A stretch of 64,000 bases of DNA. Origin: Pseudomonadota bacterium. Its GTDB lineage: Bacteria > Pseudomonadota > Alphaproteobacteria > Micavibrionales > UBA2020. The notes beneath the pieces are model-generated. The model made no database searches. It was not told the DNA's origin and saw only the letters and a program-made list of their open reading frames with translations. The position numbers and the translations under genes were made by a program. Location of the stretch: positions 74,264 to 138,263 of the forward strand of contig JAJZVA010000006.1 of assembly GCA_021845905.1 (NCBI GenBank), in the 5' to 3' direction. Shown piece after piece: positions 17,769-51,204 of the stretch (position 1 is its first letter; each line of letters opens with the position of its first letter).

Positions 17769-17806
17769 ACTAAACTCCTTCTAATTGTTATGCTTACGGA
17801 GCGCCG

Positions 17807-28193: not shown

Positions 28194-28997
28194 ATGAGTA
28201 AGGATTCTCCTCCCCTGCACGCCAGGGGTTATATAGAGGCCCTCGCCTCCCGCGGACGCTATCAGTTCGGCTCTGAAGAGGCCCGCAAGGCACTCGGGGT
28301 TTCGGAGGCTGCGGCCAAGCTGGCGCTGAACCGGCTCGCCCGACGGGGCCTGATCGCCAGCCCGGCCCGCGGCTTTTACGTCATCGTGCCGCCGGAATAC
28401 CGCCGTCTCGGCTGCCTCCCGGCCGACCAGTTCATTCCGTCCCTGATGCAGCGGCAGGGCCTTGCCTATTATGCCGGACTGCTTTCAGCAGCCCAGTTTC
28501 ATGGCGCCGCCCATCACAGGCCACAGGAATTCCAGGTAATGCTCGCCAAGGCGCGCCGCCCCATTCGCTGCGGGCAGATGCGCGTCACCTTCCATATGCG
28601 CAAACGCCTCAAGGAAGTGCCGGTGCAGACCTTCAACACGCCGCGCGGCACGGTCCTCGTCTCCACGCCCGAAGCGACGGCTCTCGACCTTGTCGGCTAT
28701 CAAGAACAGGCAGGCGGACTTGACGTAGTTGCGACCGTGCTTGCGGAGCTTGCCGAAAAAATCGATCCGGAAAAACTGGCGGCGGCGGCGCAGACGGCGC
28801 CGCTGCCGTGGGCACAGAGGCTGGGCTATCTCCTGCACAAGATCGGCGCCGCGGACAAAGCAGCCGTATTGAAAGATTACGTCAGGCGGCATGCGCGGCA
28901 GAGCGCCGCGCTGCTGCCGGGAGCGCCTGCCAAAGATGCGCCGCGCGATGCGGCGTGGAAGGTGATCGTCAATGCCGATGTGGAGGCGGAACTGTGA
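28194..28997 (+). CDS. abiEi: AbiEi-family antitoxin
   Basis: N-terminal wHTH (AAAKLALNRLARRGLIASPARGFYVIVPPEY); overlaps downstream AbiEii gene. Confidence 0.8.
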   Translation: MSKDSPPLHARGYIEALASRGRYQFGSEEARKALGVSEAAAKLALNRLARRGLIASPARGFYVIVPPEYRRLGCLPADQFIPSLMQRQGLAYYAGLLSAAQFHGAAHHRPQEFQVMLAKARRPIRCGQMRVTFHMRKRLKEVPVQTFNTPRGTVLVSTPEATALDLVGYQEQAGGLDVVATVLAELAEKIDPEKLAAAAQTAPLPWAQRLGYLLHKIGAADKAAVLKDYVRRHARQSAALLPGAPAKDAPRDAAWKVIVNADVEAEL

Positions 28998-29815
28998 TTC
29001 CGCGCGACTACATCACGGAGTGGCGGGCGCAGGCGCCCTGGGTGCAGGACTTGCAGGTCGAGCAGGACCTTGTCATCAGCCGGGCGCTCGTGGCGATCTT
29101 CACCCATCCTCTGCTTGCACGCGCGCTCGCCTTCCGCGGCGGGACGGCACTTTACAAGCTGCACCTGAAGCCGCCGGCGCGGTACTCCGAGGATATTGAT
29201 CTCGTACAGGTCAACGCCGAACCCGCGGGTCCGATCATGGACGCGCTCCATGAGGCGCTCGATGACTGGCTTGGCAAGCCGCGGTACAAGCAAAGCGAAG
29301 GCCGGGTGACATTTTTCTATCGCTTTGACTCGGAAGACATGCCGCCGATCCCGCTCAGGCTCAAGGTCGAAATCAATTCGCGGGAGCATTTTGCGGTTTA
29401 CGGTTTCGCGCGCCTCCCGTTCGCCGTGTCCTCGCGCTGGTTTGAAGGCGCCTGCGAGATCGCGACCTATGCGCTTGATGAGCTGCTCGGCACGAAGCTG
29501 CGCGCCCTTTATCAGCGCAAGAAAGGCCGCGACCTTTTCGATCTGTCCGTCGCGCTCAAAGAACCGTCTGCCCATCCTGATCGCGTGATCGATGCGTTTT
29601 CTCGATACATGGCGCATGGTGGCCACCAGGTGTCGCGCGCCGAGTTCGAAGAGAATTTTGATGCGAAACTGCGCGACCGGCAATTCACCGCTGATATCGG
29701 CGCGCTACTTGCTACGGGTTACGCATGGGACATTGACGCCGCCGCCGAAATCGTATCCTCGCGTCTGATTGCGCACCTGCCGGGCGAGCCGTGGAAGGGC
29801 GAAGGAAAAAAATGA
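28994..29815 (+). CDS. abiEii: AbiEii-family nucleotidyltransferase toxin
   Basis: GTG start overlapping upstream TGA; FRGGTALYKLHL...RYSEDIDLVQ motif. Confidence 0.8.
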   Translation: MIPRDYITEWRAQAPWVQDLQVEQDLVISRALVAIFTHPLLARALAFRGGTALYKLHLKPPARYSEDIDLVQVNAEPAGPIMDALHEALDDWLGKPRYKQSEGRVTFFYRFDSEDMPPIPLRLKVEINSREHFAVYGFARLPFAVSSRWFEGACEIATYALDELLGTKLRALYQRKKGRDLFDLSVALKEPSAHPDRVIDAFSRYMAHGGHQVSRAEFEENFDAKLRDRQFTADIGALLATGYAWDIDAAAEIVSSRLIAHLPGEPWKGEGKK

Positions 29816-29948: not shown

Positions 29949-30869
29949 TTAAGCGGCGGCCCTCTCCTCGGCTTGGGATTCTGCGGTCTCCGCCTTCGGC
30001 TGCAAGCTGTGCAAGAAGGCGGCGGCGCGTTCGGCGTGGGCGGCGGCGGTGAAGACAGCCCGCTTGTCGTTCTTCAGTACGCGCAACCAGTTCTCAACGT
30101 AGCTGGCATGATCAGCGCGGGGTTCCGGTGTCAGAGCGAGGTCGGCACAGAGAAACGCACTGCCGAGTTCCGCCACCAGTTCCTCGGCGGCGTAAGCTTC
30201 ATCTCCCCAGCGTTTGCGGCCAAACTCGCGGGCAAGGCGCTTTTCGTGTTTCGTGGCGTGCGTGCATTCGTGCGCCAAAGTGGCGTAATAGCTTTCCGCA
30301 TCCCTGAACGTCTCGAACGGCGGCATCTGCACAACGTCGCGGCCTTCGGCGTAGAAAGCCCGGTCTCCACCATGCCGGATGTCGATTCCGGTCGCGGCAA
30401 AGAAGGCTTCCGCGTGGGCGATGCGCTGCACGGGATCGATCGTCGGCGCGGCGGGTGCCGTGAAGTGCGGCGGCAGATTGTCGATCTGCTCCGCGTTAAA
30501 CACGGTGTAGCCTTTGAGGAAGGGGATTTCGCGCTCGGTATCTTCTCCGTTCTCGGTCGTCTCGGTGCGCGTGATCTTGCTTGCGAACACGACAAGCTCG
30601 CCATGCTCTCCCTTGCGCACCTGCGCCCCGAGTTCCCGCGCTTGTTTATAGGTCAACCAAGTCGGCGAGACGTAACCGGATGCGGTAGCCGTCATCCAAA
30701 GCGTAATGACGTTGATTCCGCGATAGGGGATTCCGTTGTGGCGTAACGGGCGGGTGATGCGTCCTGCGGCATGTTCTGCGTTCCAAGGTTTCACCCAAGG
30801 ACGGGTGCCCGTCTCCAGTTCCGCCACGATGCGGTTGGTGATTCGCGTGTAGATGTCTTGCTTTTCCAT
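29949..30869 (-). CDS. ardC: ArdC-like antirestriction protein (ssDNA-binding N-domain + zincin peptidase)
   Basis: MEKQDIYTRITNRIVAELETGTRPWVKPWN; C-terminal HECTHAT; start at 30869, the track's upstream extension is not credible. Confidence 0.8.
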   Translation of the reverse strand: MEKQDIYTRITNRIVAELETGTRPWVKPWNAEHAAGRITRPLRHNGIPYRGINVITLWMTATASGYVSPTWLTYKQARELGAQVRKGEHGELVVFASKITRTETTENGEDTEREIPFLKGYTVFNAEQIDNLPPHFTAPAAPTIDPVQRIAHAEAFFAATGIDIRHGGDRAFYAEGRDVVQMPPFETFRDAESYYATLAHECTHATKHEKRLAREFGRKRWGDEAYAAEELVAELGSAFLCADLALTPEPRADHASYVENWLRVLKNDKRAVFTAAAHAERAAAFLHSLQPKAETAESQAEERAAA

Positions 30870-31239
30870 GATCTGCCTTCCTTTCCGGGCTTGGGGTTCA
30901 GCGCGCGTCTGAACCCTTGCCCGTCGGCGAGACCGGGGTGTGCAAGCGGAAAGGGGCTTCGCGGGGAACCGGCTGCACGGAGCCGGCGCCGCTTCGCGCG
31001 GGCGGAGGAAGCTGGGCGGAAGCCCCTTGCAGCGCGCTGAGGGGCAGCGCCCCTTCCATGTCCTTTTGCAAGTAATATTTCGTGCGTCAGCACACCGCAT
31101 AAAAATGCCGTGCTGAAATGGGGTTTTTGTGTTTCTGTTGGGTCGGAAGCAGGGCGGCGATGGCGACGGTCGATCAAACTTCCATACGCGGGTCAAAAAC
31201 CGCATGAATGCGTGTCGTCTTGGGCCTACCTCGGACTAA

Positions 31240-32640
31240 GTGCGAGCATCGGCATTGTGCCTGCTCATAGGGGCCTCGAGGATTGCCTGAACCGTCCGCC
31301 CTGCCCCCGGCCAAACAGGCCAGGAGTCGAAGATGCCTATGGCATCACCGGTTTCACTTCCTGGCCAATCGCCCATATGAATCCGGATAGTTCTCGCGCG
31401 ATAGCGGTAACCACCACTGTTGGCTTCTTGTTTTTGGCCGTCAGTTTCCGGTAGCGGTCGCAGAGACGAGTCTGAGCCTTCCAGGCGATATCTCGTACCA
31501 CCTTGGGCAACTCCATGATGATTGCGACCTTGCCTGTAGCGACGCGGGCTGGATAGCGATAGCTCCACGACGCTTCAACAAGCATCCGTCTGGCTTCAAG
31601 GTTTCCCGTTTTTGTGATGCCGCTGCGATGGATGCGCGCACCGCTGGAATGTTCCGAAGGGACGAGACCAAGATAAGCCATGAGCTGGCGGGGATTCTCG
31701 AAACGGGTCAGGTCGCCGGTCGCGGCCACGAAAGTGACGGCGGAGATAAGATCAATCCCGCGCAAGCCTCGGAGAGCTTCGACAAGTGGCGCGAGAGACC
31801 AGCCCGAAGTCAACGCAACAATCCGTTCGACGAGTCGATCCCGCCGCTCCTGACCTGCAGCGACAGCTTCGACGTAATCCTGAAAAACGATTTGATGCGC
31901 CGGCTGATCAAACGTCTGGCTGGCAAGCCAGAGATAGTGTTTTTTTGTCCAGTGCTTGAGCCCCTGCTGATACGTTCGGCCATGCCGAAGCAAAAATGCA
32001 AGAAGCTGTTGCCTGGCACGCGTCAGGTGCACGACAGCATCCATTCGTGCACGGACGAGATCGCGCATTGCCTCATGCACCTCGTCCGGCACCCAGACCC
32101 GCGTGAGATCGCCTGAGCGATGCAAGATCGCGAGCCGTTGGGAATCTCTCCGGTCAGTCTTGATCTTGTCTCCCGCCATGGTTGGGATTTTTGAAGGCGC
32201 TACCACCATGCAACCATGGCCGAGATCGGTGAGTTGGCGGTAGATAATGTAACCGCAGCACCCGGCTTCGTAACAGAACTCAAGGCGACCGCCGTCTTTT
32301 GAAAGTTGCTTGGTGAGCTTCTCGATGTCATTGGGGGTGTTTGGGATAGCACCGATGAATCTGATCGGGCCGTCTCGACCGTCCTCGGCAACGGTTACCG
32401 AAATGCTTGCCTTGTGAACATCCAACCCAACATAAAACGTCTTTTTCATATACTCTCCATCCATTGAATATTTTTGCGTGCTCTCGGCACGATCACTTCA
32501 ACAGTAGAGAACTGAAGGCAAACGTCTACGGCGCACCCCTTAAGGACATACAGACTAAGCTGCGCGCCATGCGCGCTGAAGGCCGCGTCTGCGGCCGAAA
32601 AACTCACCTTGCCCGAAGGATCGTCACCTCTGGCCGAGAC
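31240..32640 (-). mobile_element. IS110-family insertion sequence (ends approximate)
   Basis: Contains the IS110-type transposase; ~190 nt non-coding upstream of the ATG; no terminal repeats identified, boundaries are guesses. Confidence 0.35.
31337..32449 (-). CDS. IS110-family DEDD transposase
   Basis: MKKTFYVGLDVHKASISVTV... N-terminus, C-terminal SGITKTGN region. Confidence 0.9.
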   Translation of the reverse strand: MKKTFYVGLDVHKASISVTVAEDGRDGPIRFIGAIPNTPNDIEKLTKQLSKDGGRLEFCYEAGCCGYIIYRQLTDLGHGCMVVAPSKIPTMAGDKIKTDRRDSQRLAILHRSGDLTRVWVPDEVHEAMRDLVRARMDAVVHLTRARQQLLAFLLRHGRTYQQGLKHWTKKHYLWLASQTFDQPAHQIVFQDYVEAVAAGQERRDRLVERIVALTSGWSLAPLVEALRGLRGIDLISAVTFVAATGDLTRFENPRQLMAYLGLVPSEHSSGARIHRSGITKTGNLEARRMLVEASWSYRYPARVATGKVAIIMELPKVVRDIAWKAQTRLCDRYRKLTAKNKKPTVVVTAIARELSGFIWAIGQEVKPVMP

Positions 32641-37130: not shown

Positions 37131-37270
37131 CGCGGCTTCCTGCTGCTCGCCGCGTCCATGGCGCGTAAGCCGGAGCCAAAGCCCTCAACGCGGACTTGCT
37201 CATCAAAAGCGCAAAGGGCGGACTCTGCCCACATGGCGCGGTTAAGGTTGGTTATTTTTGGAGAGGTCAT
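37127..37270 (-). CDS. small hypothetical protein (47 aa)
   Basis: MTSPKITNLNRAMWAESALCAFDEQ...; ATGA overlaps at both ends indicate translational coupling. Confidence 0.5.
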   Translation of the reverse strand: MTSPKITNLNRAMWAESALCAFDEQVRVEGFGSGLRAMDAASSRKPR

Positions 37271-37659
37271 TTGGACCTCCTTGCCGCCAGAGTGGCGGCG
37301 GCCTGCAAGAGGGCGGGCCGATCTTCGGTGATGCATTCGGTCCAGCGGGCGGCTTCGGCGTAAACCGACATGGGATGACCGGCAGTGAACGACAGGTCGC
37401 GTTCAACGGGCAACCCGAGCTTGCCGCGAAGGGAACGGAGTTCGTCGAGGCTGACGCAGCCGAGTTCGGGGAAACGAAGGCCGAGGTCGCAGAGACCGAA
37501 GGCGATGTCCGGCTCTTCCGGATCGATCTCAGAGAGAAGCCAGGTACAGCCGGCGTCCGGCGTAAAGAGTTTCACGACCGGCGGATGGTCCTGATCGCGA
37601 TTTCGTCCATTGGCGAGCAACTGCTCGAACTGCGCTTTGGTGAAAAGGTTCATGTTCAT
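37267..37659 (-). CDS. DUF2958 domain protein
   Basis: KLFTPDAGCTWLLSEIDPEEPDIAFGLCDLGLRFPELGCVSLDEL. Confidence 0.8.
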   Translation of the reverse strand: MNMNLFTKAQFEQLLANGRNRDQDHPPVVKLFTPDAGCTWLLSEIDPEEPDIAFGLCDLGLRFPELGCVSLDELRSLRGKLGLPVERDLSFTAGHPMSVYAEAARWTECITEDRPALLQAAATLAARRSK

Positions 37660-37713
37660 TCTCCTTGTGTTTGCTTACGCCCCGAAGGGACAGCGCAGCC
37701 AAGGCCGGGCGCG

Positions 37714-37790
37714 AGACGCAGCGTCACACAGGAAAATTGGGGGCGACCTTCAGGGGGAACCAAGGCTTCCTGTTGACGCGGGAAGCGTCT
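37714..37790. promoter_or_regulatory. conserved structured leader element, copy A
   Basis: AGACGC-A-GCGTCA-C-ACAGGAA...CCTTCAGGGGGAACC...TTCCTGT-TGACGC-GGGAA-GCGTCT; homologous copies at 46295 and 48655. Confidence 0.65.
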
Positions 37791-38186
37791 GCGGCTGGCA
37801 CGGTCGCTAGACACTGCCGTTCGGGGGACGGCAAGCACGGAGAGAAGTTGAACCGCCAAAGCGAAGACAGTGCTACACGCTATCGCACGATCAAAACGGC
37901 CTGAAATGCCTCCGCAGCTTTCGCCGTGGCGGCGCGCGACGCAGGAACATTGACCGAAGCTGCGGCGCGCCCGGCGGCGCCGGCGATGGCGGGGGCGGCG
38001 CTGGCGGCGGAGGAGGTTTCGCGAGAAGGCGCTCGATTGCTGCAATCGCCACGGCGATCCTGCGCTGCGCCAATGCCAGCATGCGCAGCATGGTTCCGGT
38101 CAAAAACCGGGAACCCCAATTGGAAAGCGCGGCAACCTTTCTGGTGAGGAAGCGGCTCGGCTTTGATTGCAGGAAGCGCGAACCGC

Positions 38187-39701
38187 TTAGCGTACACGTG
38201 GTGGCGGATCGGGTCCGTCCCTGCTTCGCCCATGTTCGTCCTTGAGCTGTTGTTCGAGGCGACGGCGCTCCTCGATCTCGGCGAGGAGTCTTACGGCGGC
38301 TTCGTGCTCGCGCAAATACCGGTCGCGTTCCTGCTCGTATTTGGCGTCGTGTTCGCGGCGCTGTTGTTCGTGGCGTTCGGTCAGCTCGGCGAGGTCACTT
38401 GCCCGTTCGGCCTTGAGGCGCGCGACCCGGTCAGCGCGTTCCTCTTTCTGTCGGCGCAAGAAGGCGTCCTTCGCGTCTTTGCGGTCGCGGGCTTTGTCGG
38501 CCATTAGTTGCGGATTGAGTCTTTCTTTGATCGCTTCGATGAAAGCGGCGATGCCGGTCTTTGCCCGATAGGTGTCCCGGAAAAACTGCTCCCTCGCCGC
38601 CTGTTGCAGGGCGTCGAAGTGACCGAGCTTCTCCCGGGCTTCCTCTGTGAGGACCCGCGCCGTCTGTTTGTATTCAGCCTCTTGCCGGAGGCGCATCTGG
38701 CGGCCTTCCTCCGCATGGCGCTCCTTCAACGCGGTTTCAAGGGCGGCGATTTCTTCCTTGGTGGGGTCTTGCTTGGCGGGGCTGTCCGGCGCGGGGCTTT
38801 CCGACGGTGACGGTGGCGGTTGGGGCGCGGGCTGTTGGTGAGCTTCAGGGCTCTCTGGCGGGGCTTTCTCCGGCTCCGGTTTCCGGGCGCGCTCGTCCTG
38901 AAGCGCCTTGGCCTGATCGATGGTCGGGATCACGTTCCGGTCGATGTCGGCCATGAATTCCCGCAGCTCTTTGGCGTTCACGCCTTTGATCTGCCGGGCG
39001 AGGCTATAGACCTGGTGATGTTCGTCCACGATCACGTAATCGCGGCGGTCGCCCCTGGCGAGGACGTAGCCCTTTTCTTCAAGGGCCGCCTTGAAAGCCT
39101 GTCCATTGTCGGATTGCTCATAGAGCGCGGTGATGGCGGCTTTGAATTCCCGCGGGTCGATGCCGGTGCGTTCGCCCTGCTGCCATTCGGCGTGGTTGAA
39201 TTCCTGCCGCGGGAACTCCGGCTGCTTCTCCCGATCGCGTTTGGCGTGCTTGCCGGGAACGTGCTCGTGCCCGAATTCCTTTTCGAGGGCCATGCTCGCC
39301 CGCTCGTGGGCAAGGTAGTTCCAACTGTCGGAGCGCAGCGTCATCGTGTCGATGTCGGTGCGCTGCCAGACGACGTGGATGTGCTCGCGCCCGTGCTTTT
39401 CATGGAGGACGACGGCGCGGGGCTGGTCTTCCAGGCCAAGCTCTTTTTCGAGGACTTCGACGGAGCGCTGCCACTGCTCGGGCGTCATGGCGTAGTCGCC
39501 GTGCGGGTCGATGTTGGCGTGATAGAGCCCCCGGCTCCCCAGAGTGCCTTCGGTCAGAAACTGCCAGTCGCGAAAGCTCTCCTTGAGGCTGTCGTGCGGG
39601 GACTGGATTTCGAGGATTTTGACGCGCTCATTGGTGTCGGTGCGGAGAAGATGGCGGGCGAGCTGGTCAGGGCTGCCGCGGCTGCTACCCTTGATGATCA
39701 T
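38187..39701 (-). CDS. relaxase/mobilization nuclease (MobA/VirD2 family)
   Basis: MIIKGSSRGSPDQLARHLL..., HGREHIHVVW His motif; long coiled-coil C-terminus. Confidence 0.85.
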   Translation of the reverse strand: MIIKGSSRGSPDQLARHLLRTDTNERVKILEIQSPHDSLKESFRDWQFLTEGTLGSRGLYHANIDPHGDYAMTPEQWQRSVEVLEKELGLEDQPRAVVLHEKHGREHIHVVWQRTDIDTMTLRSDSWNYLAHERASMALEKEFGHEHVPGKHAKRDREKQPEFPRQEFNHAEWQQGERTGIDPREFKAAITALYEQSDNGQAFKAALEEKGYVLARGDRRDYVIVDEHHQVYSLARQIKGVNAKELREFMADIDRNVIPTIDQAKALQDERARKPEPEKAPPESPEAHQQPAPQPPPSPSESPAPDSPAKQDPTKEEIAALETALKERHAEEGRQMRLRQEAEYKQTARVLTEEAREKLGHFDALQQAAREQFFRDTYRAKTGIAAFIEAIKERLNPQLMADKARDRKDAKDAFLRRQKEERADRVARLKAERASDLAELTERHEQQRREHDAKYEQERDRYLREHEAAVRLLAEIEERRRLEQQLKDEHGRSRDGPDPPPRVR

Positions 39702-40071
39702 CAGACCCCTCCCCGGCGGGTTTCATGCCGAGGGCGGTGAAGATGGCGTCGCGGATCATGCGATAGGCGGCCAGTGCCTCCTTGATTTCAGGGAGGGGGA
39801 CGGTTTCGCCCTGGTTCAGCCGGCGGGCGATCTGGTTGATGTTGTTGCCGATGCGCCCGCACTCGCCGAGGAGCTGCCGCAGGGTCCGATGGTCGGCGGT
39901 GGGCCGGCGCCTGGCGCGGGGGCCGGCATCGCCGAAGGCGGCGGCCCGCATGAAAGCGCCCGCGGCCATGCCGCTGCGGGAGGACAGGGTTTCAAGGGCG
40001 GCGCGCTCGTCTTTGGTCAGACGGACGGTGACAGTCTCGCCCCGCTGTCGTTTGTCGCTCCCGCTCGTCAT
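39685..40071 (-). CDS. mobC: MobC-family relaxosome accessory protein
   Basis: VRLTKDERAALETLSSRSGM... and GRIGNNINQIARRLN. Confidence 0.85.
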   Translation of the reverse strand: MTSGSDKRQRGETVTVRLTKDERAALETLSSRSGMAAGAFMRAAAFGDAGPRARRRPTADHRTLRQLLGECGRIGNNINQIARRLNQGETVPLPEIKEALAAYRMIRDAIFTALGMKPAGEGSDDHQG

Positions 40072-40180
40072 TCCACCCCTCTTGCGTGCGTCGGCACGCG
40101 GGTTTCAAGGGGCCTGTCTTGGCGGGGCCGGCGCGGTGGGACCGGCTCTCCCGGGCGGTTCTTGTCTGCCGCCCCGCAGC

Positions 40181-40572
40181 CAAGGGCGCAAAATGCCCCT
40201 GGTCGTCGCCGGGGCCGAAATCCCCGGTCATGGGTTCCATAGGGAGCACGAAGGCTCCCTTGGTCGGTGCCGGGGCCGAAACCCCGGTCAGAGTGCAGGG
40301 GCTCGAAGGCCGCCTGCTCGTGGGTGCCGGGACGCGAAAGTCCTGGCGAGTGGTCAAGGGCGCGATAGCCCTTGTCAGGGTCCAGGGCGGAACGCCCCGG
40401 CCATGGGTTCCTTAAGGGAGCACGGAGGCTCCCTTGGTCGGGTCCAGGGCGGAAGCCCGGTCTGGTCCAGGACGAAGTGCCTGGTCTGGGTCCACGGGGC
40501 GAAGCGCCCTGGTCCTGGGGATGCAACGGGGGTGGACAACCCCCTTGCCAAGCCGCGCGGTGTGACCGCGCA
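40181..40572. repeat. ladder of at least 10 short GC-rich hairpins punctuated by (T)GGTC, upstream of mobC
   Basis: e.g. CCGGGG-CCGAAAT-CCCCGG, AGGGAGC-ACGAAG-GCTCCCT, CAAGGGC-GCGATA-GCCCTTG, AAGGGAGC-ACGGAG-GCTCCCTT; ~39-nt direct repeat at 40229 and 40402. Confidence 0.7.
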
Positions 40573-41040
40573 TGGCTTGCACTTCACGATATCAGGATAT
40601 CACGAGTTTCCTTAATGTGGGATTAAGAAAGTCCGGTTTGCGGTGGGAGGCCTCGGCTAACGCCGATTCTCCCGATTCGATATGTAAATTATACCACGCA
40701 CGGCAGAGTTCGGGGACAATGCTTTGAGACGGAAGCTCATCGGGCTTCCGGCACGGCCCTATCGGGCCGTCCCGCAATCCTTGGCATAGGGCACATAGCA
40801 GGTTTGAAGCAGAGTGCCAGGCTTGAGACCTGTATGGCCGAGGTCGGAAATGACCTGTCTCCGATCGAGAACGGGGGCCACGTCGAGCCCGCCGCCGCCG
40901 GTTTCGAGAACCGACGGCGGCGTCATTGTTTTTTTCAGGAAAAACAATGAGTTATATGGATGACCTTTGAGAATTAACCGATAAATCAGTGGGTTATGAG
41001 ATAATCAAGAATAAGAGCAAAACCCGAGAATGGAGCGGGC

Positions 41041-41711: not shown

Positions 41712-44700
41712 TCACGTCCTGACCTCTTCCGGCCCGGGAATGTCGGCGGCGACGAGTTGCTTTAGGTCCTCTATTCCTACGTCATGCGCATCCGCCAGCC
41801 TCGTCGCCTGTCGTTCCATGCAGACTTCGAAGAGATTGCGCACCGCGCGACCGTTGCCGAACCCCTTGCCACGCCCTGTATAGAGCGCATGGATAGTTTT
41901 CTTGAGCTTCGGGGGCGCCTTTCCGGTCAGCTCCATGCCGTTCCGGGCACAAAGCCCCCGGAAAATCTCCATCAAGTCTGACGGTTCATAGTCGGGGAAA
42001 TCGATGAACGTCTTGAAGCGCGATTTGAGGCCGGGGTTGCTGTCCACGAAACCCTGCATTTCTTCGCGATAGCCCGCCGCGATGACCACGAGACGGTCCC
42101 GGTAATCCTCCATGAATTTGAGCAGCGCCGTAACGGCCTCGATCCCGAAATCGTTGTTCGAGTCTGACGAAATCAGGCTGTAGGCTTCGTCGATAAACAG
42201 CACGCCGTCCAGGGCCTGCTCCACGGCCTCCGCAACCTTGGGCGCGGTCTGGCCGATATATTCCGCCACCAGATCGCCCCGGCTTACCTCGATACAATGG
42301 CCTTTTTTCAGGACCCCAAGATCGCGATAAATCCGGCCGATGATGCGCGCGACCGTCGTCTTGCCCGTGCCGGGGTTGCCCGTAAAAACCAGATGGTTCG
42401 ACCTCTCGGGCACCGGCAAGCCTGCCTTCCGCCGTGCCTGGTTGACTTTCTCCAGATTGGCGACGGTTTCGACCTGCTTTTTGACGGGCGCGAGACCGGT
42501 CAGTCCGCGCAGGTCCGCGAAGGGGTCTTGCTTCGTCTCGACCGGAGCGGGCGCTGCCGGTTGCTTTTCTCGGGGCGGCTTCGGCGGAGGCGATGACGGT
42601 TGCGGTGGCGGTTGCGGCGGTTTCTGCTGCCCTTTGCTGAAATAAGGATTCTCGTCGTACTGAAGCGGCGGCGCCTTACCCATGTTGTACGGATACATAT
42701 GCTTGAGATGATCGTAGGCACGATCGAGATTCCAGTAGTCGATGGGTCTGAGATACTCCGGCAAACCGCGCGGGTTGAGCAGGATTGCCACGTCCCGCCC
42801 GAGATTGAGAATCTCGTCGGGCATCAGCAGCGGGCGTGCCATCTCGCCGAAGTTGGTGCTTTCCCCGGATGTGGCGCCGCCCTTGGTCTCGCCGGAGGAC
42901 ATGGATGTCGCCACGGTGCGCACGGTCGCCTTGCCGAGGCTCTCGCTGAGATATTTGGCGGTGTCGAGTTCGTTGACGAAACAGAACCACTTGAAGGCGC
43001 AATTGCTGAGGATCGTTCCGCTGGAATCGCCGTAGTGATCCTTGAGCTGGTCGAGCCCCTGCACGATCAGCGTGAAGTCGAGCCCGTAGCCGCTCATCAG
43101 CGCGATATCGCGCGGAATGTCGTCGATGCGCCCGATGGAGCCGAACTCGTCTATCAGGAACATGCAGCGACGGCGCGGCACGCTTGTGGCCTTGTGGCTT
43201 TTCATGCCCTGCATGGCGGAGGCGATGACCAGCCGGAGCCAGGTGGCGTGGGTTTGAATCCGGTCGTGCGGGATGACGAGATAGACGGTGGTCGCTTCCT
43301 CCCGGAGCTTCTTCATCGAAAACGAAGACGAGGCCGTCGATTGCTTGATCTGCGGGTCCGACAGGAACTTGGTGTTCTCTGCCAGGTTCGACATGATCCC
43401 GCTGTAGGTTTCCGGCGCGAGGTCGATGTACTGGCTGACCATCTCGCTGACCGCGCCGTGGTAAGCGGTTGAAGCCGTCATCTTGACCAGAATCTTGAGA
43501 AACTCGGCCCGGCTCATGGTCACGATCTGACGGGCGCGGGCGAGGGTCTTTTGTTCGCCCGGCGCGTCGGCGATCCAGAGAAAGACGCCCGCGAGCACGT
43601 TGGCCGCGCTCCCCTGCCAGAACGACTCCTTGCCTGTCGCGGGCGGGCAGATGATTGCCGCGAGCGATTGGGCGAAGGCGACGGCGTTGGGATCGTTGCG
43701 GTCGAGCGCGTCGAGCGGGTTGAAAGTCGCCCTGGCGAAGCCAAGGCTCCGGTAACGGCTCTCCATTTCTCCCCACGGGTTGACGATATGGACCGTCTGC
43801 TTATGCCGGTTGCGGCGCGTGCGCGCCGTGATCGCCGCGTTCTCGCCTTTGGGGTCGATGACCAGCATCGAGCCTGTGTAATTCAACAAGGTCGGCACGA
43901 TAACGCGGGTGCCCTTGCCCGCCCGCGTGCGGGCCACGATCAGCGTATGTGTTTCCGGCGATGACGTGACGGGGGCGCCGGGAGCATCGGCAGGGATGTC
44001 AGGTCTGCTGCTTTTACCGAAGTTGACGCCCTGGAACATATTCTCCCCGCGACGCTCCACGATCCGATGTTCGGCCCAGTCGGCGGTGCCGTAGTTGTCG
44101 CTCAGCGGCGGAAGGGAATCGTCCGGCTCTTCTTCACGTCTCAACATCAGCCACCCAAAAAACCCGATCACGAACGCGCCGCCACCGTAAACCAGAACGT
44201 AAGCGCTTGCGGTGATCCAGGGATTCGGCTTGACCGAAGACCCCGCGTTCGCGGAAGAAACGGGGTTCTGGCCCCGTCTTTGCGCCTCACTCTCCCAATT
44301 GACCTGCGCCGCCACGTATTCCGGCGCAAAGTAGCGCCCGAGCACGTCACGCATAAAATCCGTGTTGGCGCTGTAGGCGTATTCCTTCTCGAAAAACTGC
44401 GGCCGGATGCAGCTCTTGCCGGAACAATTCCCGTCGTTGAATTTGAGGCCATAGGGTTTCTCGCCGAAGGCGCGGGAGTATTCCCGAAACTTGGCGGCGG
44501 CGCGGGGCGGCATCGACCTGATGTCCAGGGCGCCGGTCCAAACCTGAATCGCGTTGCGGAGGATTTCGAAAGCTGCGGCCTGCCGTGCGGCCGTATCGAT
44601 TTCGTTCGAACCCCGGACGTCCCTGAACACTTGCGCGACCGTGGGAGCATGGGCGATCCATCCGTCGCTCATGGCTGCGGCGCGGCAGGTGGCCGGCACA

Positions 44701-44747
44701 GGAGCAAGCGCCAGAGCGAAAGACAGACAGAGCAGACGAAAGCGCAT
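41712..44747 (-). CDS. VirD4/TraG-type coupling protein fused to a C-terminal CbbX/SpoVK-like AAA+ module
   Basis: Signal-like MRFRLLCLSFALALAPVPATC (start 44747; track start 44855), TM segment, IVARTRAGKGTRVIVPTLL Walker A, Pro-rich linker, then VFTGNPGTGKTTVARIIGRIY...GVLFIDEAYSL. Confidence 0.8.
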   Translation of the reverse strand: MRFRLLCLSFALALAPVPATCRAAAMSDGWIAHAPTVAQVFRDVRGSNEIDTAARQAAAFEILRNAIQVWTGALDIRSMPPRAAAKFREYSRAFGEKPYGLKFNDGNCSGKSCIRPQFFEKEYAYSANTDFMRDVLGRYFAPEYVAAQVNWESEAQRRGQNPVSSANAGSSVKPNPWITASAYVLVYGGGAFVIGFFGWLMLRREEEPDDSLPPLSDNYGTADWAEHRIVERRGENMFQGVNFGKSSRPDIPADAPGAPVTSSPETHTLIVARTRAGKGTRVIVPTLLNYTGSMLVIDPKGENAAITARTRRNRHKQTVHIVNPWGEMESRYRSLGFARATFNPLDALDRNDPNAVAFAQSLAAIICPPATGKESFWQGSAANVLAGVFLWIADAPGEQKTLARARQIVTMSRAEFLKILVKMTASTAYHGAVSEMVSQYIDLAPETYSGIMSNLAENTKFLSDPQIKQSTASSSFSMKKLREEATTVYLVIPHDRIQTHATWLRLVIASAMQGMKSHKATSVPRRRCMFLIDEFGSIGRIDDIPRDIALMSGYGLDFTLIVQGLDQLKDHYGDSSGTILSNCAFKWFCFVNELDTAKYLSESLGKATVRTVATSMSSGETKGGATSGESTNFGEMARPLLMPDEILNLGRDVAILLNPRGLPEYLRPIDYWNLDRAYDHLKHMYPYNMGKAPPLQYDENPYFSKGQQKPPQPPPQPSSPPPKPPREKQPAAPAPVETKQDPFADLRGLTGLAPVKKQVETVANLEKVNQARRKAGLPVPERSNHLVFTGNPGTGKTTVARIIGRIYRDLGVLKKGHCIEVSRGDLVAEYIGQTAPKVAEAVEQALDGVLFIDEAYSLISSDSNNDFGIEAVTALLKFMEDYRDRLVVIAAGYREEMQGFVDSNPGLKSRFKTFIDFPDYEPSDLMEIFRGLCARNGMELTGKAPPKLKKTIHALYTGRGKGFGNGRAVRNLFEVCMERQATRLADAHDVGIEDLKQLVAADIPGPEEVRT

Positions 44748-45173
44748 CTGAATCAGTCCCCGGGGCATCGCCACAGGCGGCTCGATGGCAGACAAGGCCG
44801 AAAGCTCTGTAGTCCGTCCGACGCCAGAAGCGATAGTGCTGCGGAAGTATTGCATACGCCAGTCCCTGAACCTCTGAAAAAAGCGCGTTGGAGACCTGCC
44901 GCTTTGATTGTGTCCGCGCGGTAATGATTCAAATCCATGATCTCCCCCCCTTTTCAGGGAGCCCCGATTCCGGACTTCGATGGTGCAGCGTTAGCACCGG
45001 CGCGCCTTTGGGCGCTGCAAGCTTGTTGCCAAGCTCCTTCTCTTCGTTGCGGTCCACTCATGTTGCGCATGCACAGCATGGTGGATGCAGCTCAAGGCGG
45101 CCGTCGCTCTCCACGGCTGCGTGAAGTCCGCGATCGGCGCGGGCAGAAGAAAAGGAGAGACACCATGAGAGTC

Positions 45174-45443: not shown

Positions 45444-45950
45444 TCACGCGCAACGATAAACAAGCCGCGTTCCGGCAATGGTCGTTTCGCTGTAGTCCAT
45501 GCCGAGGTCACGGGCGATGGCGTCATAGTCGAGATAATTGCGGATGGGTTCGGGGATTTCTCCGAACAGTCCTTCATCGACAAATTGCTCGGCGAGTTCG
45601 CGCAGGCTGTCTATTTGATAAAGATCAACGTCGAAGTCGTCCGGATCGCCGGAAGCCAGGTCGAAGCGGTATCCGCATTCGCCGACGGCGATGATGACTT
45701 TCTGCTTCTGATTATCGTCCCACGCGTCGCAGGCGTCCAGAAATTGCGGGAAGTTGCCTTGGTTGACGCCGAGCGCCTCGAACAGCTTCGCGTCGATGCT
45801 TTCGCCGTCGATGAATTGCAGTTCAAATCCCTCCACGGGGCAGCCAGCGGAATTGCGTAGCTTCGCGGCTTTCTCCGCGTATTCGGACGCGGTTCGGAAG
45901 TAGAAGCCCGTGGCGCTGATGTCGTAAGGTTGTGCGAATAATTCGGTCAT
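45444..45950 (-). CDS. ardA: ArdA-family antirestriction protein
   Basis: Acidic 168-aa protein; family recognised from overall pattern incl. MTELFAQPYDISATGFYF N-terminus. Confidence 0.75.
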   Translation of the reverse strand: MTELFAQPYDISATGFYFRTASEYAEKAAKLRNSAGCPVEGFELQFIDGESIDAKLFEALGVNQGNFPQFLDACDAWDDNQKQKVIIAVGECGYRFDLASGDPDDFDVDLYQIDSLRELAEQFVDEGLFGEIPEPIRNYLDYDAIARDLGMDYSETTIAGTRLVYRCA

Positions 45951-45960
45951 GGCTGCCCCC

Positions 45961-46230
45961 TCACGCTGCCAGTAGGGTTTCGGCTTCGAGCATCACGTCG
46001 ATGTAATCGACGGGACCGCCGGCGGCGGTGATGATCGAACGCGGCAGGGCGTGCGCGTAAAGCCCGCTTGGCGCGATGGGAAGCGGTGCGTCGGTGGGAT
46101 AGATGCTCCGCACCTGAAGGTGCGCGAAGTCTTGTCCGGTGACGCTGGCCGGAAGCCAGTCGGGCTCATAGGTGATTTCCAGCAAGTGGCCCTTCCAGTC
46201 CATGCGGTGTATTTCGGTCGTGCGTTTCAT
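45961..46230 (-). CDS. hypothetical protein
   Basis: 89-aa ORF directly upstream of ardA and downstream of leader element copy B. Confidence 0.5.
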   Translation of the reverse strand: MKRTTEIHRMDWKGHLLEITYEPDWLPASVTGQDFAHLQVRSIYPTDAPLPIAPSGLYAHALPRSIITAAGGPVDYIDVMLEAETLLAA

Positions 46231-46294
46231 CGGCGTTTTCCTTTTTTCTGTTTGAACGATCCCCTTCGGGATTGAGTCCCCGCCTCACGCGCAA

Positions 46295-46396
46295 GGGCGC
46301 GGTGTCACACAAGAAAATCGGGGGGAACCTTCAGGGGGAACCGACCCCTGAACGAAGTTCGGGGCCTGTTTTCTTGTTGACGCCAGAAAGCGCCCG
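46295..46396. promoter_or_regulatory. conserved structured leader element, copy B
   Basis: GGGCGC-GGTGTCA-C-ACAAGAAAA...CCTTCAGGGGGAACC...TTTTCTTGT-TGACGCC...GCGCCC; compensatory changes relative to copies A and C. Confidence 0.65.
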
Positions 46397-46512
46397 CGCG
46401 TGATAAAAGGGGCCAGACCGACACTGAAGGGGCGTTCAAAACCTGAGAGAAAAAGGAAAACGCCGGTCGCGTGAACGACCGGCGTCATGGACGGCGATGC
46501 GTCCGTTGATGA

Positions 46513-48365: not shown

Positions 48366-48596
48366 TTAAGCGCTCTTCCCTTCCGTTTCCTCGGGTTGCA
48401 CAGCGGCTTTTGCTTTGGGCGGAAATGCCGCGTAGCGTTTGCCGGCGATCAAGAGGGTGAAGCCGTTGCCCTTCTTGTGGGCGAAGCCTGCACCTGCGGG
48501 TTTGCCGGATTTTTCGCCGTTGGCTGCGTTCTCGAAGATGTAGAAGTCGGGAACCTGTTTGGTTTTGGCCGTTTGGTTTTCAGTGGTCGTTGTCAT
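48366..48596 (-). CDS. hypothetical protein
   Basis: GGAG RBS then ATG at 48596: MTTTTENQTAKTKQVPDFYIF...; first gene after leader element copy C. Confidence 0.5.
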   Translation of the reverse strand: MTTTTENQTAKTKQVPDFYIFENAANGEKSGKPAGAGFAHKKGNGFTLLIAGKRYAAFPPKAKAAVQPEETEGKSA

Positions 48597-48654
48597 TTTA
48601 GTCTCCTTCGTTTGCATTACCCTTTCGGGCGATGCCTCCGATCAGCCAGCAGCG

Positions 48655-48730
48655 GATGCAGCGTCACACAGGAAAATTGGGGGAGACCTTTAGGGGGAAC
48701 CGAGGCTTCCTGTTGACGCGGGAAGCGGCC
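48655..48730. promoter_or_regulatory. conserved structured leader element, copy C
   Basis: GCGTCA-C-ACAGGAA...CCTTTAGGGGGAACC...TTCCTGT-TGACGC; near-identical to copy A. Confidence 0.65.
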
Positions 48731-49244
48731 GCGCATGGCAGGGGGCTCGAACATGCACGAAGGGTGGATGCAAATAGCGGAAGGAGATGATGTGCTGACA
48801 ACGCCGGAGAACCACGGCTCGCAAACAGGAACGCGTCATCATTCCTGAGAAGAACGGACGCGCGGAAAAGACCGTTTGATCACCCGTTCGCTCCACCACG
48901 GCAGATTAGGTGAACCGATCCCGTAGATCGCATCCGTCAACGTTGCGGCCTCCGGCAAGCAGCCGCGCAACCTCGTTTGGATACGGAAGGGAATGTCGAT
49001 AACGGGTGTGCTCACACTTCCGAAAGGAAAGCTCGGCGGCGCCCCCACAGCGCAACGCCCGAGCTGCTGATTGTCAAATGAGGAAAATGTCGAACCCGGG
49101 AATCGTCCGATCCGTGTTCGACGCGGCACGCGCAACGGTCCCGTAGCTTTATCGTGCCTGTCGCCGTTAGGCCGTTCGGCCCGGCTCCGGAGCGCCGTCC
49201 AGCGCTCCCGACAACTTGAAGATTCTCAAGCAGGGAAAGGAAGA

Positions 49245-51163: not shown

Positions 51164-51204
51164 GATTTTAAGTCGTGTGCGTCTACCAGTTCCGCCACAG
51201 GGCC
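51164..51204 (-). tRNA. 5' part of the resident tRNA-Leu(UAA), ending in att core copy 3
   Basis: Minus strand GGCCCTG-TG-GCGGAACTGGTAGACGC-A-CACGA-CTTAAAA-TC, then CTATGTAAAATAAT (no tRNA 3' half). Confidence 0.85.

What the first reader, a model, noticed from the sequence alone, without database searches (positions are those of the whole stretch)
37660..37790. Covarying hairpin element in the leader of the DUF2958 operon (copy A of three)
Positions 37714-37790 fold as outer stem AGACGC/GCGTCT, then GCGTCA/TGACGC, a bulged C, then ACAGGAA/TTCCTGT, around a conserved CCTTCAGGGGGAACC centre. The element lies ~55 nt upstream of the operon ATG. Homologous elements precede two other operons (see next finding). 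This repeated structured module at operon heads of the transfer/anti-restriction arm is not explained by any protein-coding feature.
Basis: seen in the sequence. Interest (0 to 1): 0.7.

Follow-up and report, generated by a model that had tools for sequence, protein, structure and literature searches.

The report
Hairpin switch heading conjugative-element establishment operons
The reported hairpin is real, but it is only the tip of a ~230-nt fold-back found ahead of anti-restriction-type genes in mobile elements of many soil and water bacteria, and the evidence favours it folding in the transferred DNA strand as a new kind of single-strand promoter, though this is untested.

Summary
In detail: stems, bulged C and conserved centre sit exactly at 37714-37790, and two more copies (B ~46335, C ~48694) lie in the same orientation.

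It is much larger than reported. Each copy is the apex of a 227-267-nt imperfect hairpin. Its arms run from just after the upstream gene to past the Shine-Dalgarno and start codon of the downstream gene, and the upstream arm covaries with whichever gene follows.

Relatives occur in 33 genomes and more than 120 metagenome contigs. They precede DUF2958, ParB-like, ArdA, ArdC and small unknown genes. There is no Rfam match and no similarity to the F plasmid leading region that holds its Frpo promoters.

- **Which strand folds:** transition mismatches are mostly C·A on the mRNA strand, which are G·T wobbles on the complementary strand (120 of 137 copies).
- **Transferred strand:** the oriT layout predicts that this complementary strand is the transferred strand and the template of all these genes.
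- **Promoter-like features:** that strand's 3' arm carries TTGACG. A 4-5-nt bulge sets a roughly 17-bp helical spacer, followed by a conserved CA and an irregular region.

Best reading (about 0.5): a new class of single-stranded-DNA promoter or priming hairpin. The main weaknesses are that only copy B has a -10-like box, the conserved loop is unexplained, and copy A lies at the lagging end.

The parts
37635..37861 (+). Copy A, whole fold-back (about 227 nt). The 5' arm (37635-37734) is the template of the DUF2958 leader, Shine-Dalgarno and first codons. The 3' arm is 37767-37861.
   Evidence: DNA fold of the + strand: -57.5 kcal/mol, z -4.04, 0 of 200 shuffles. Arm-against-arm alignment gives 79 Watson-Crick pairs.
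37714..37790 (+).
   Evidence: Sequence. Covariation count on relatives.
37739..37761 (+). Apical loop core. It holds two direct repeats, GGGGGCGACC (37739-37748) and GGGGGAACC (37753-37761), separated by TTCA. On the mRNA strand they read GGYTCCCCC and GGTNNCCCCC.
   Evidence: Most strongly conserved part across both classes. In relatives the spacer is replaced by hairpins of variable sequence. Part of this conservation was imposed by the search patterns.
37773..37778 (+). TTGACG, a -35-like hexamer on the 3' arm of the + strand. It is the non-template strand only in the folded single strand. In duplex DNA it points away from the operon.
   Evidence: TTGAC is present on this arm in 45 of 55 class I copies, against 9 of 55 on the other arm.
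37780..37784 (+). GGGAA, a 4-5-nt bulge found only on the 3' arm, between the -35-like box and the next helix.
   Evidence: The upstream arm has 5 nt where the downstream arm has 1 in all class I copies. The distance from TTGACG to the conserved CA is 20 nt on this arm (40 of 47 copies). On the partner arm I counted 17-18 nt on two copies only (A and L002, sequences).
37799..37804 (+). CACGGT, at the position where a -10 hexamer would lie, followed by an irregular, poorly paired stretch.
   Evidence: Hexamers at this position: CAGGGG in 30 copies, CACGGT in 3. Copy B has TG-A-TAAAAG, unpaired in the predicted fold. This is a poor -10 in copies A and C.
37651..37666 (-). Shine-Dalgarno AAGGAG (37666-37661) and the likely start codon ATG (37653-37651) of the DUF2958 gene, both inside the basal stem.
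   Evidence: Sequence. Homologous loci start MNLFTK at the equivalent ATG. Pairing with upstream TTCTCTCC...GTTGAAC.
37267..37653 (-). DUF2958 gene, first gene downstream of copy A.
   Evidence: Pfam PF11171, E 3.7e-39.
46215..46481 (+). Copy B, whole fold-back, upstream of an 89-aa ORF (45961-46230) and ArdA (45444-45950). TTGACG is at 46377-46382. A 23-nt hairpin is inserted in the loop.
   Evidence: Longest inverted repeat in the window (I1). Fold -81.4 kcal/mol, z -7.3. ArdA Pfam hit.
46459..46486 (-). Intrinsic-terminator-like hairpin (12-bp stem plus T run) directly after the ParB-like gene. Its 3' half is part of the upstream arm of copy B.
48575..48813 (+). Copy C, whole fold-back, upstream of a ~76-aa ORF (ATG 48596) and the ParB-like gene (46513-48330). 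TTGACG is at 48713-48718.
   Evidence: Fold -51.8 kcal/mol, z -2.97. Sequence. Pfam and NCBIfam ParB hits.
40520..40610 (+). oriT-like region. It reads GGGGATGCAACGGGGG..CCCCCTTGCCAAGC, then an inverted repeat (40549-40579), then CATGGCTTGCA. It lies between the T4CP gene and the nikA/mobC-relaxase operon.
   Evidence: The module is conserved in seven of the eight related loci examined, counting the window. In L092 it is followed on the same strand by TATCCTG/T.

Best explanation
The element is a structure of the transferred DNA strand, not of the mRNA.

Proposed mechanism:
1. When the integrative mobilizable element (or plasmid) is transferred by conjugation, the window's + strand enters the recipient as single-stranded DNA.
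2. At each copy, roughly 230-270 nt snap back into a long imperfect hairpin.
3. The hairpin rebuilds a duplex -35 box (TTGACG on the 3' arm). A 4-5-nt bulge shortens the helical spacer to about 17 bp. A conserved CA marks the junction to an irregular, poorly paired stretch.
4. Host RNA polymerase starts there and copies the 5' arm, making an mRNA that begins just before a small GNRA/UUCG hairpin and a free Shine-Dalgarno.
5. The downstream establishment genes (DUF2958, ArdA operon, ParB-like, small unknown proteins) are therefore expressed before the second strand is made.
6. The RNA may also prime complementary-strand synthesis, or the hairpin may stall it.
7. Once the DNA is double-stranded, the box faces the wrong way with a 20-21-bp spacer, so the promoter disappears. 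Any read-through RNA carrying both arms would bury the Shine-Dalgarno and start codon.

Shown here: the structure, its covariation, its spread, the strand bias of mismatches, and the gene and oriT geometry.

Inferred: which strand is transferred, the promoter activity, the transcription start, and silencing in the duplex state.
For: 1. **Long fold-backs.** Hairpins of 227-267 nt with z -3 to -7.3. The upstream arm pairs with the Shine-Dalgarno and first codons, and changes with the downstream gene.
2. **Strand asymmetry.** On the mRNA strand, C·A versus G·U mismatches are 128 vs 48, 398 vs 185 in class I and 581 vs 244 in class II. C·A exceeds G·U in 120 of 137 copies. In the 26 apical pairs the count is 32 vs 7. 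After normalising for base composition, the excess is carried mainly by upstream-arm C opposite downstream-arm A (17% of downstream-arm A's), with the other mismatch classes at 5-12%. Strand-symmetric mutation predicts equal numbers, so the complementary strand appears to be the one kept foldable.
3. **Geometry.** Relaxase, NikA/MobC, T4CP, ArdA, ParB-like and DUF2958 genes are all on the minus strand. The element is co-oriented with them in 15 of 16 related loci. The oriT inverted repeat followed by a conserved box lies on the + strand, and L092 has TATCCTG/T there. This is the usual layout in which the relaxase enters last and the + strand is both transferred and template.
4. **Comparator.** F plasmid leading genes have the same orientation towards oriT, and the F region where Frpo2 is reported (upstream of ssb) folds into a ~320-nt T-strand hairpin (PMC9849209).
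5. **-35-like box.** TTGAC is on the 3' arm in 45 of 55 class I copies and on the other arm in 9 of 55. The distance to a conserved CA is fixed at 20 nt. Copy B has an extended -10-like TG-A-TAAAAG there, unpaired in the fold.
6. **No conventional promoter.** No sigma-70-like duplex promoter is found upstream of any copy, and a strong terminator sits directly before copy B.
7. **Gene content.** Downstream genes are typical establishment or anti-defence genes: ArdA, ArdC, ParB-like, DUF2958, DUF4326, AlpA. This matches the association described for ssDNA promoters (PMC11541004, PMC12672017).
Against: - **No usable -10 in most copies.** Copies A and C, and most relatives, read CACGGT or CAGGGG. 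Known ssDNA promoters rebuild canonical -10 boxes (PMC9849209, PMC12672017).
- **The loop is unexplained.** The most conserved part is the apical loop with two G5-A-R-CC repeats, and a promoter model does not account for it.
- **Copy A is at the lagging end.** It lies about 2.9 kb from the 3' end of the predicted transferred strand, not in the leading region. The same placement is seen in relatives.
- **RNA-like loops.** The small hairpin before the Shine-Dalgarno has GNRA or UUCG loops on the mRNA strand, as do some apical inserts (GCAA, GCGA). The first fits an mRNA starting upstream of it, but the second would not be transcribed in this model.
- **Class II is less regular.** Its arms are not a simple hairpin, and both arms carry TTG.
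- **The nick site and transferred strand are inferred, not mapped.**
- **Sampling limits.** The sequences are related, so counts are not independent, and the search patterns fixed part of the core.
Confidence: 0.5

Rival explanations
1. It is an RNA structure in the 5' leader. A transcript that includes both arms folds into the long hairpin, hides the Shine-Dalgarno and start codon, and is opened or stabilised by a factor that recognises the C-rich apical loop. The result is translational control or mRNA stabilisation.
For: The basal stem covers the Shine-Dalgarno and AUG, with an anti-SD CTCCTT in the upstream arm. GNRA and UUCG tetraloops lie on the mRNA strand in the small downstream-arm hairpin and in some apical inserts. 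The RNA fold of the sense strand is also stable. Some copies upstream of the ~76-83-aa gene (the family of the ORF after copy C) have a sigma-70-like TTGTCA-N17-AATAAT or AATATT upstream.
Against: Mismatches are 2-4.6 times more often C·A than G·U on the mRNA strand, the reverse of what an RNA helix tolerates. No promoter is conserved upstream of the upstream arm, and a terminator abuts copy B. The TTGTCA box is explained by pairing with ATGACAA of that particular gene and is absent in other copies. There is no Rfam match.
Confidence: 0.2
2. It is a single-strand DNA element without promoter function. It could be a priming site for complementary-strand synthesis (ssi or sso-like, read by primase, PriA or RNA polymerase), or a hairpin roadblock that times conversion to duplex DNA. 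The conserved loop would be the recognition site.
For: It shares the strand and geometry evidence of the main model. Copy A near the 3' end of the transferred strand is a good place for a primer that can copy almost the whole strand. Frpo was first described as making primer RNA, and an ssDNA promoter acts as a roadblock in F (bioRxiv 10.64898/2026.01.09.698686). The conserved loop and the poor -10 fit a reader other than sigma-70.
Against: It always lies immediately upstream of a gene, and the arm is tailored to that gene's Shine-Dalgarno and start codon, which a pure priming site would not need. No primase gene was found in the window. The sso CS-6 motif TAGCGT is absent from the loop.
Confidence: 0.13
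3. It is a duplex-DNA regulatory cassette. An element-encoded regulator (for example the ParB-like protein or a small unknown protein) would bind the conserved centre or the interrupted palindrome and repress several operons until it is diluted after transfer, as in repressor-based zygotic induction.
For: The same module heads several operons, like the kor operators of IncP or the Reg576-controlled promoters (PMC6294495). Within class I the inner stem is conserved in sequence rather than covarying.
Against: Hairpins of variable length (4 to more than 60 nt) are inserted in the middle of the conserved centre, which a duplex binding site would not tolerate. Helices covary. There is no duplex promoter. 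The strand-biased mismatches have no meaning for duplex DNA.
Confidence: 0.07
4. It is a selfish or neutral repeat, such as a miniature inverted-repeat element, with no role for the host element.
For: There are multiple copies per element and a palindromic architecture.
Against: Only the apex is repeated. The arms are unique to each site and complementary to the local gene start. Position and orientation are fixed relative to genes. It is conserved across phyla.
Confidence: 0.03

Closest known systems
Frpo / ssi single-stranded DNA promoters of F and ColIb-P9 ('class 1'; Masai & Arai 1997, PMC9849209, PMC12672017)
   Same: Several copies per element. Each is a long imperfect hairpin in the strand that is template for co-oriented anti-restriction, ParB-like and SOS-inhibitor-type genes pointing towards oriT. 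A duplex -35 box is rebuilt by folding. No conventional promoter is present.
   Different: No sequence similarity. The hosts are integrative elements and plasmids of Alphaproteobacteria, Acidobacteria, Nitrospira and others rather than enterobacterial plasmids. There is no canonical -10 in most copies. The apical loop is strongly conserved. The hairpin reaches over the Shine-Dalgarno and start codon, whereas the F hairpin upstream of ssb stops about 35 nt before the Shine-Dalgarno. One copy lies at the lagging end.
Class 2 and class 3 ssDNA promoters of the IncI plasmid pESBL (klcA/ardA and M.EcoGIX; PMC12672017)
   Same: They set a precedent that unrelated hairpin families serve the same role upstream of anti-defence operons, and that they can be found by hairpin mining rather than by homology.
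   Different: Those have mapped transcription starts and rebuilt -35 and -10 boxes. Here nothing is mapped.
Minus-strand origins of filamentous phages and ssoA-type single-strand origins of rolling-circle plasmids (from my own knowledge)
   Same: Strand- and orientation-specific single-strand DNA hairpins that RNA polymerase reads as promoter mimics to make a primer. ssoA has a conserved loop motif.
   Different: Those make only a short primer and are not tied to a downstream gene. The ssoA CS-6 motif TAGCGT is absent here.
EGeRS1 modules of pLS20-family plasmids (PMC8708921)
   Same: Long, conserved, repeated non-coding modules at the heads of several establishment operons.
   Different: In pLS20 the transferred strand is the non-template strand, and the modules carry a strong duplex sigma-A promoter, so the authors judged an ssDNA promoter role highly unlikely. 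Here the geometry allows it and no duplex promoter is seen.

Membership tests
Frpo/ssi class 1 ssDNA promoters | Sequence homology to the known Frpo/ssi sequences (the BLAST criterion used in PMC11541004) | tested here: not met
   blastn (word size 7) of copies A, B and C, and nhmmer with the core profile, against the F leading region gave only chance hits with E >= 0.14.
ssDNA promoters in general (functional class) | A long stable stem-loop in the transferred strand upstream of an operon | tested here: met
   Hairpins of 227-267 nt, z -3.0 to -7.3. The identity of the transferred strand is inferred.
ssDNA promoters in general (functional class) | The transferred strand is the template strand of the downstream genes | tested here: inconclusive
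   The genes are on the minus strand. The oriT inverted repeat plus conserved box lies on the + strand, and a relative has TATCCTG/T there. The nick itself is not mapped.
ssDNA promoters in general (functional class) | Folding rebuilds -35 and -10 boxes at a working spacing | tested here: inconclusive
   For the -35 box: TTGACG on the correct arm in 45 of 55 copies. For the spacer: 20 nt on that arm, and 17-18 nt on the partner arm as counted on two copies (A and L002, sequences), because of a bulge. For the -10 box: acceptable only in copy B and its relatives (TAAAAG with TG), and CAGGGG or CACGGT elsewhere.
ssDNA promoters in general (functional class) | Transcription from single-stranded DNA and early, transient expression in transconjugants | not testable with these tools
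   Needs in vitro transcription or 5'-RACE/RNA-seq in matings.
Any Rfam RNA family | A covariance-model match at or near the gathering score | tested here: not met
   No hit at gathering thresholds in the window apart from a group I intron elsewhere. In E-value mode, the matches overlapping the hairpins themselves are two miRNA-family hits at 16.8-19.2 bits against gathering scores of 80-90, a ClpQY_promoter hit at 15.9 bits (gathering 42), and an osmY RNA hit at 25.7 bits (gathering 46.9, E 0.0045) on the downstream arm and Shine-Dalgarno region of copy B. All are well below their gathering scores.
ssoA single-strand origins of rolling-circle plasmids | Conserved CS-6 (TAGCGT/A) in the terminal loop | tested here: not met
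   The loop reads AATTGGGGGCGACCTTCAGGGGGAACCAAGGC, with no TAGCG. The feature definition is from my own knowledge.
Integron attC sites | R''/R' boxes (RYYYAAC and GTTRRRY), 57-141 nt long, located at the 3' end of a cassette | tested here: not met
   CGTCAAC and GTTGACG do not fit the boxes. The structure is 230-270 nt and is tied to the downstream gene's Shine-Dalgarno and start codon. The definition is from my own knowledge.
Intrinsic terminator | A GC-rich hairpin followed by a U run on the transcribed strand | tested here: not met
   No terminator call falls on the element itself. The only ones are upstream of copy B and inside genes.

The most novel reading that the evidence does not exclude
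The element is a two-state switch specific to single-stranded DNA. On the entering strand, the conserved loop (two GGGGGA-R-CC repeats held together by a variable hairpin) recruits a universal host factor or an element-encoded protein. This lets RNA polymerase start at a pre-opened junction without a -10 box. The same sequence in duplex form yields only read-through RNA whose two arms bury the Shine-Dalgarno and start codon. This would be a promoter type with its own recognition logic, spread across at least five phyla on mobilizable islands.
Probability: 0.15. Interest if true: 0.85.

Novelty: new variant of a known kind. Interest (0 to 1): 0.64.

Why it matters
Single-strand promoters have been shown experimentally only for F- and I-type plasmids of enterobacteria. 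A sequence-unrelated family on integrative mobilizable elements and small plasmids of Sphingomonadales, Caulobacterales, Acidobacteria, Nitrospira and Bdellovibrionota would have three consequences:

- Early expression from the incoming strand would look like a general strategy of conjugative DNA rather than an enterobacterial speciality.
- The family would give a simple sequence marker (loop plus stem) for finding establishment and anti-defence genes, including a very common ~70-aa protein family with no annotation.
- It would offer a natural test of how much of a -10 element RNA polymerase needs at a pre-opened junction.

If the element instead acts in RNA, it is an unclassified and widespread leader motif. 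Either way it is directly testable.

Tried and rejected
- **Rfam:** scans at gathering and E-value thresholds found nothing relevant.
- **Plasmid BLAST:** one hit only, Sphingopyxis pSREG01. It was useful for synteny.
- **MFE comparison of the two strands:** the antisense strand is more stable in 35 of 35 copies. I rejected this as evidence because shuffled controls show the G/T-rich strand folds better by composition alone.
- **Sigma-54 reading of TGGCAC/TGGCAG:** the -12 GC is not at the right distance (read from the sequences).
- **DnaA box in the stem:** TTTTCCTGT matches only 6 of 9 positions.
- **Promoter running up the stem towards the loop** (GAAAAT plus a G-rich discriminator): no -35 box at any sensible spacing.
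- **Duplex promoter inside the loop:** excluded by the variable-length inserts.
- **Antisense RNA:** this would need a promoter inside the unrelated downstream genes, and none is conserved.
- **attC and ssoA:** the defining motifs are absent.
- **A further hairpin upstream of ArdC (31135-31318):** weak, z -1.8. An IS110-family transposase gene lies just upstream, so I did not pursue it.
- **Small downstream proteins:** Pfam, NCBIfam and PDB sequence searches gave nothing.
- **Literature searches** for DUF2958 and for ICE leading-region hairpins found no description of this element.
- **Covariance model:** not built, because nhmmer with a core profile already recovered all copies and found no fourth copy in the window.

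Full report
**1. The observation**

On the + strand, the stems are AGACGC/GCGTCT (37714-19 / 37785-90), GCGTCA/TGACGC (37721-26 / 37774-79) and ACAGGAA/TTCCTGT (37728-34 / 37767-73). The bulged C is at 37727 and the centre CCTTCAGGGGGAACC at 37747-61. All are exactly as described.

The genes below the element are on the minus strand. The DUF2958 gene (Pfam E 4e-39) begins at ATG 37659 or, with better Shine-Dalgarno spacing and agreement with homologues, at ATG 37653.

The centre recurs at 46328 (exact) and 48687 (one mismatch), in the same orientation. Copies A and C share 89 nt at 90% identity, and all three share 46 nt at 85%.

**2. It is larger than reported**

Reading the alignment showed that sequences far upstream are complementary to sequences far downstream. 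In copy A these are CCCCGAA and TTCGGGG; in copy B, CCCCTTC and GAAGGGG; in copy C, ACCCTTCG and CGAAAGGGT. In the common type, GTTTGCAT pairs with ATGCAAAC next to the Shine-Dalgarno. An anti-SD CTCCTT pairs with AAGGAG, and further bases pair with the first codons.

Folding gives one long imperfect hairpin per copy:

| Copy | Span | + strand DNA fold | z-score |
|---|---|---|---|
| A | 37635-37861 | -57.5 kcal/mol | -4.0 |
| B | 46215-46481 | -81.4 kcal/mol | -7.3 |
| C | 48575-48813 | -51.8 kcal/mol | -3.0 |

The basal stem of copy B is the longest inverted repeat in the whole window.

The upstream arm differs according to the gene that follows. For example, CGTTGTCA lies opposite TGACAACG, and ATCAGT opposite ACTGAC. 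Pairing is therefore what is maintained.

**3. Relatives**

- A 21-nt pattern from the core found 33 species genomes. By record title these are Sphingomonadales, Phenylobacterium, Elioraea, Acidobacteria, Nitrospira, Bdellovibrionota, and one Patescibacteria MAG, which may be a binning error.
- Only one PLSDB plasmid matched, Sphingopyxis pSREG01. It has the same order: T4CP, mobC, relaxase, small ORF, element, DUF2958.
- There are 137 distinct copies in two classes. Class I has the stem of this window. Class II has the same loop but other stems that covary (CAATC/GATTG, CAACC/GGTTG, CAAGC/GCTTG) while keeping TTG/CAA.
- On 34 class I sequences, 89% of cells in 26 pairs are paired and 10 pairs show changes on both sides. 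None of 500 shuffles reaches this, and slid controls give 31-59%. The outer helices covary and the inner one is nearly invariant.
- There is no Rfam family, no similarity to the F leading region, and no description in the searched literature.

**4. Context**

The window holds a mobilizable island with these parts:

- MobA/VirD2-type relaxase (38187-39701), NikA/MobC (39685-40071), and a T4CP fused to an AAA+ module (41712-44855).
- ArdA (45444-45950), a ParB-like protein (46513-48330) and ArdC (29949-31205).
- Defence cargo.
- No mating-pore genes.

All backbone genes are on the minus strand. Along the direction of transcription, the order is:

C, small ORF, ParB-like, B, 89-aa ORF, ArdA, T4CP, oriT, mobC, relaxase, orf117, A, DUF2958.

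This order recurs in relatives, with the element co-oriented in 15 of 16 loci.

Downstream genes of the 137 copies are as follows. Most of the counts come from BLAST clusters named after a representative checked by Pfam or tblastn. The single ArdA and ArdC genes are named from their N-terminal sequence.

| Downstream gene | Copies |
|---|---|
| ~70-aa family with no Pfam or NCBIfam model | 87 |
| DUF2958 | 7 |
| 87-aa family | 6 |
| ParB-like | 3 |
| The ORF ahead of ArdA | 3 |
| AlpA-like | 2 |
| ArdA, ArdC, DUF4326, DUF6573 | 1 each |

**5. Which strand folds**

I aligned each upstream arm with the reverse complement of its downstream arm and counted transition mismatches.

| Data set | C·A on mRNA strand | G·U on mRNA strand |
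|---|---|---|
| First 25 copies | 128 | 48 |
| Class I | 398 | 185 |
| Class II | 581 | 244 |
| 26 apical pairs | 32 | 7 |

C·A exceeds G·U in 120 of 137 copies and the reverse holds in 12.

After normalising for base composition, upstream-arm C opposite downstream-arm A accounts for most of the excess (17% of downstream-arm A's). The other classes lie between 5 and 12%.

A C·A on the mRNA strand is a G·T on the complementary strand. Strand-symmetric mutation would give equal numbers. Transcription-linked deamination of the coding strand would push the other way (my own knowledge). So the strand complementary to the mRNA, the window's + strand, appears to be the one kept foldable.

The raw energy difference between strands is not evidence, because shuffles show a composition effect.

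An antisense RNA would need a promoter inside unrelated coding regions, so single-stranded DNA is the simpler reading.

**6. Which strand is transferred**

Between T4CP and mobC, the + strand reads GGGGATGCAACGGGGG..CCCCCTTGCCAAGC, then an inverted repeat (40549-40579), then CATGGCTTGCA.

The same module is conserved in seven of the eight related loci examined, counting the window. In L092 it is followed directly by TATCCTG/T, the IncP-type nick core. TGG/CTTGCA also resembles the ColE1 nick CTGG/CTTA (from memory).

An inverted repeat lying 5' of the nick on the cut strand, with the relaxase operon on the repeat side, is the standard layout (my own knowledge; PMC11541004 states that the relaxase usually enters last). 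This makes the + strand the transferred strand and the template of every backbone gene.

F shows the same geometry: ssb, a ParB-like gene and psiB all point towards oriT. The T-strand upstream of ssb, where Frpo2 is reported, folds into a ~320-nt hairpin.

**7. Promoter-like anatomy**

In the folded + strand, the 3' arm runs from loop to base in the direction of transcription. It reads TTCCTG-TTGACG-C-(4-5-nt bulge)-GC-rich helix-(T/C)A, followed by an irregular stretch of 13-16 nt, and then the pairing CCCGA.GGG.

- TTGAC is on this arm in 45 of 55 class I copies and on the other arm in 9 of 55.
- The opposite arm usually carries an extra base (TGT-G-TGAC). Where it is perfect, the 3' arm is TTTACG, so an irregularity inside the box is itself conserved.
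- From TTGACG to the conserved CA is 20 nt on the 3' arm (40 of 47 copies). On the template arm it is 17-18 nt, which I counted on copies A and L002 only. The helical spacer is thus near 17 bp in the hairpin, but 20-21 bp if the same strand were read in duplex DNA.
- At the -10 position, copy B has TG-A-TAAAAG, predicted unpaired. Copies A and C have CACGGT and CAGGGG.
- A start a few bases further on would give an mRNA beginning just before the small GNRA/UUCG hairpin and the Shine-Dalgarno.
- No sigma-70-like duplex promoter is found near any copy, and a strong terminator abuts copy B.

**8. What does not fit**

- Most copies lack a -10 box.
- The best-conserved part is the loop: two repeats, GGGGGA-R-CC on the + strand, separated by TTCA or by hairpins of any sequence. 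No model here explains it. Part of that conservation was forced by my search patterns.
- Copy A lies near the end of the strand that enters last. This suits priming of the complementary strand better than very early expression.
- GNRA loops in some apical inserts suggest RNA.
- Class II arms carry local hairpins and are less regular.

**9. Verdict**

The hairpin is real, conserved and not previously catalogued. The best-supported reading is a transferred-strand DNA hairpin that works like Frpo-type single-strand promoters, and possibly also as a primer site or roadblock. It belongs to a new sequence family with features of its own.

| Reading | Confidence |
|---|---|
| ssDNA promoter | about 0.5 |
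| RNA leader | about 0.2 |
| ssDNA priming site or roadblock only | about 0.13 |
| Duplex operator | about 0.07 |
| Selfish or neutral repeat | about 0.03 |

It is not a member of the Frpo family by sequence. Its membership of the functional class remains untested.

Noticed in passing
window 49342-49533 (-), with repeats at 49521-49552 and 51167-51198: There is a group I intron (Rfam RF00028, 54 bits). It abuts a sequence that looks like the 5' half of a tRNA-Leu(UAA) gene (GTGGCGAAATTGGTAGACGC..GGACTTAAA), although ARAGORN calls no tRNA. An 84%-identical second copy of that 32-mer lies 1.6 kb away, with a tyrosine recombinase gene (49747-51069) between the two. These are probably attachment-site duplicates marking the right end of the island.
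   Followed up: partly
window 40170-40520 (+): A dense array of about a dozen short GC-rich hairpins lies between the nikA/mobC start and the oriT inverted repeat. Their loops on the + strand are GAA, GAAA or GCGAAG-type (for example GGGGCGAAGCGCCC). Relatives show similar arrays. It may be a single-strand DNA feature of the end of the strand that enters last.
   Followed up: no
window 41712-44855 (-): The type IV coupling protein is 1047 aa. It has an unassigned ~300-aa N-terminus and a C-terminal AAA+ ATPase with a lid domain fused to it. The window has no mating-pore genes.
   Followed up: no
window 14093-27575 and 28808-29815, 5650-6660: The cargo looks like stacked defence systems: an OLD-type TOPRIM ATPase plus a UvrD-like helicase (Gabija-like); DUF499 with an HEPN domain, a DUF1156 protein and an SNF2 helicase with NOV_C (a DISARM/Dpd-like set); and two AbiEii toxins.
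   Followed up: no
metagenome and genome loci L002-L154; window 48366-48596 (-): The gene most often found behind the element (87 of 128 calls) encodes a ~70-aa protein (..PSHIAY.VR.R....W.RIGSAW.H.DGKGF.I.L...PLDGR..LR). It has no Pfam, NCBIfam or PDB sequence match. The window's ORF after copy C is a divergent member.
   Followed up: partly
window 31135-31318, 31337-32464 (-): An IS110-family transposase gene sits directly upstream of ArdC. A 23-nt inverted repeat spans the ArdC start region, but the fold is only weakly better than shuffles (z -1.8).
   Followed up: partly
window 37962-38003 (+): A GC-rich 12-nt periodic repeat (CGGCGGCGC-like) with palindromic character lies inside the small ORF between the relaxase gene and copy A.
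   Followed up: no
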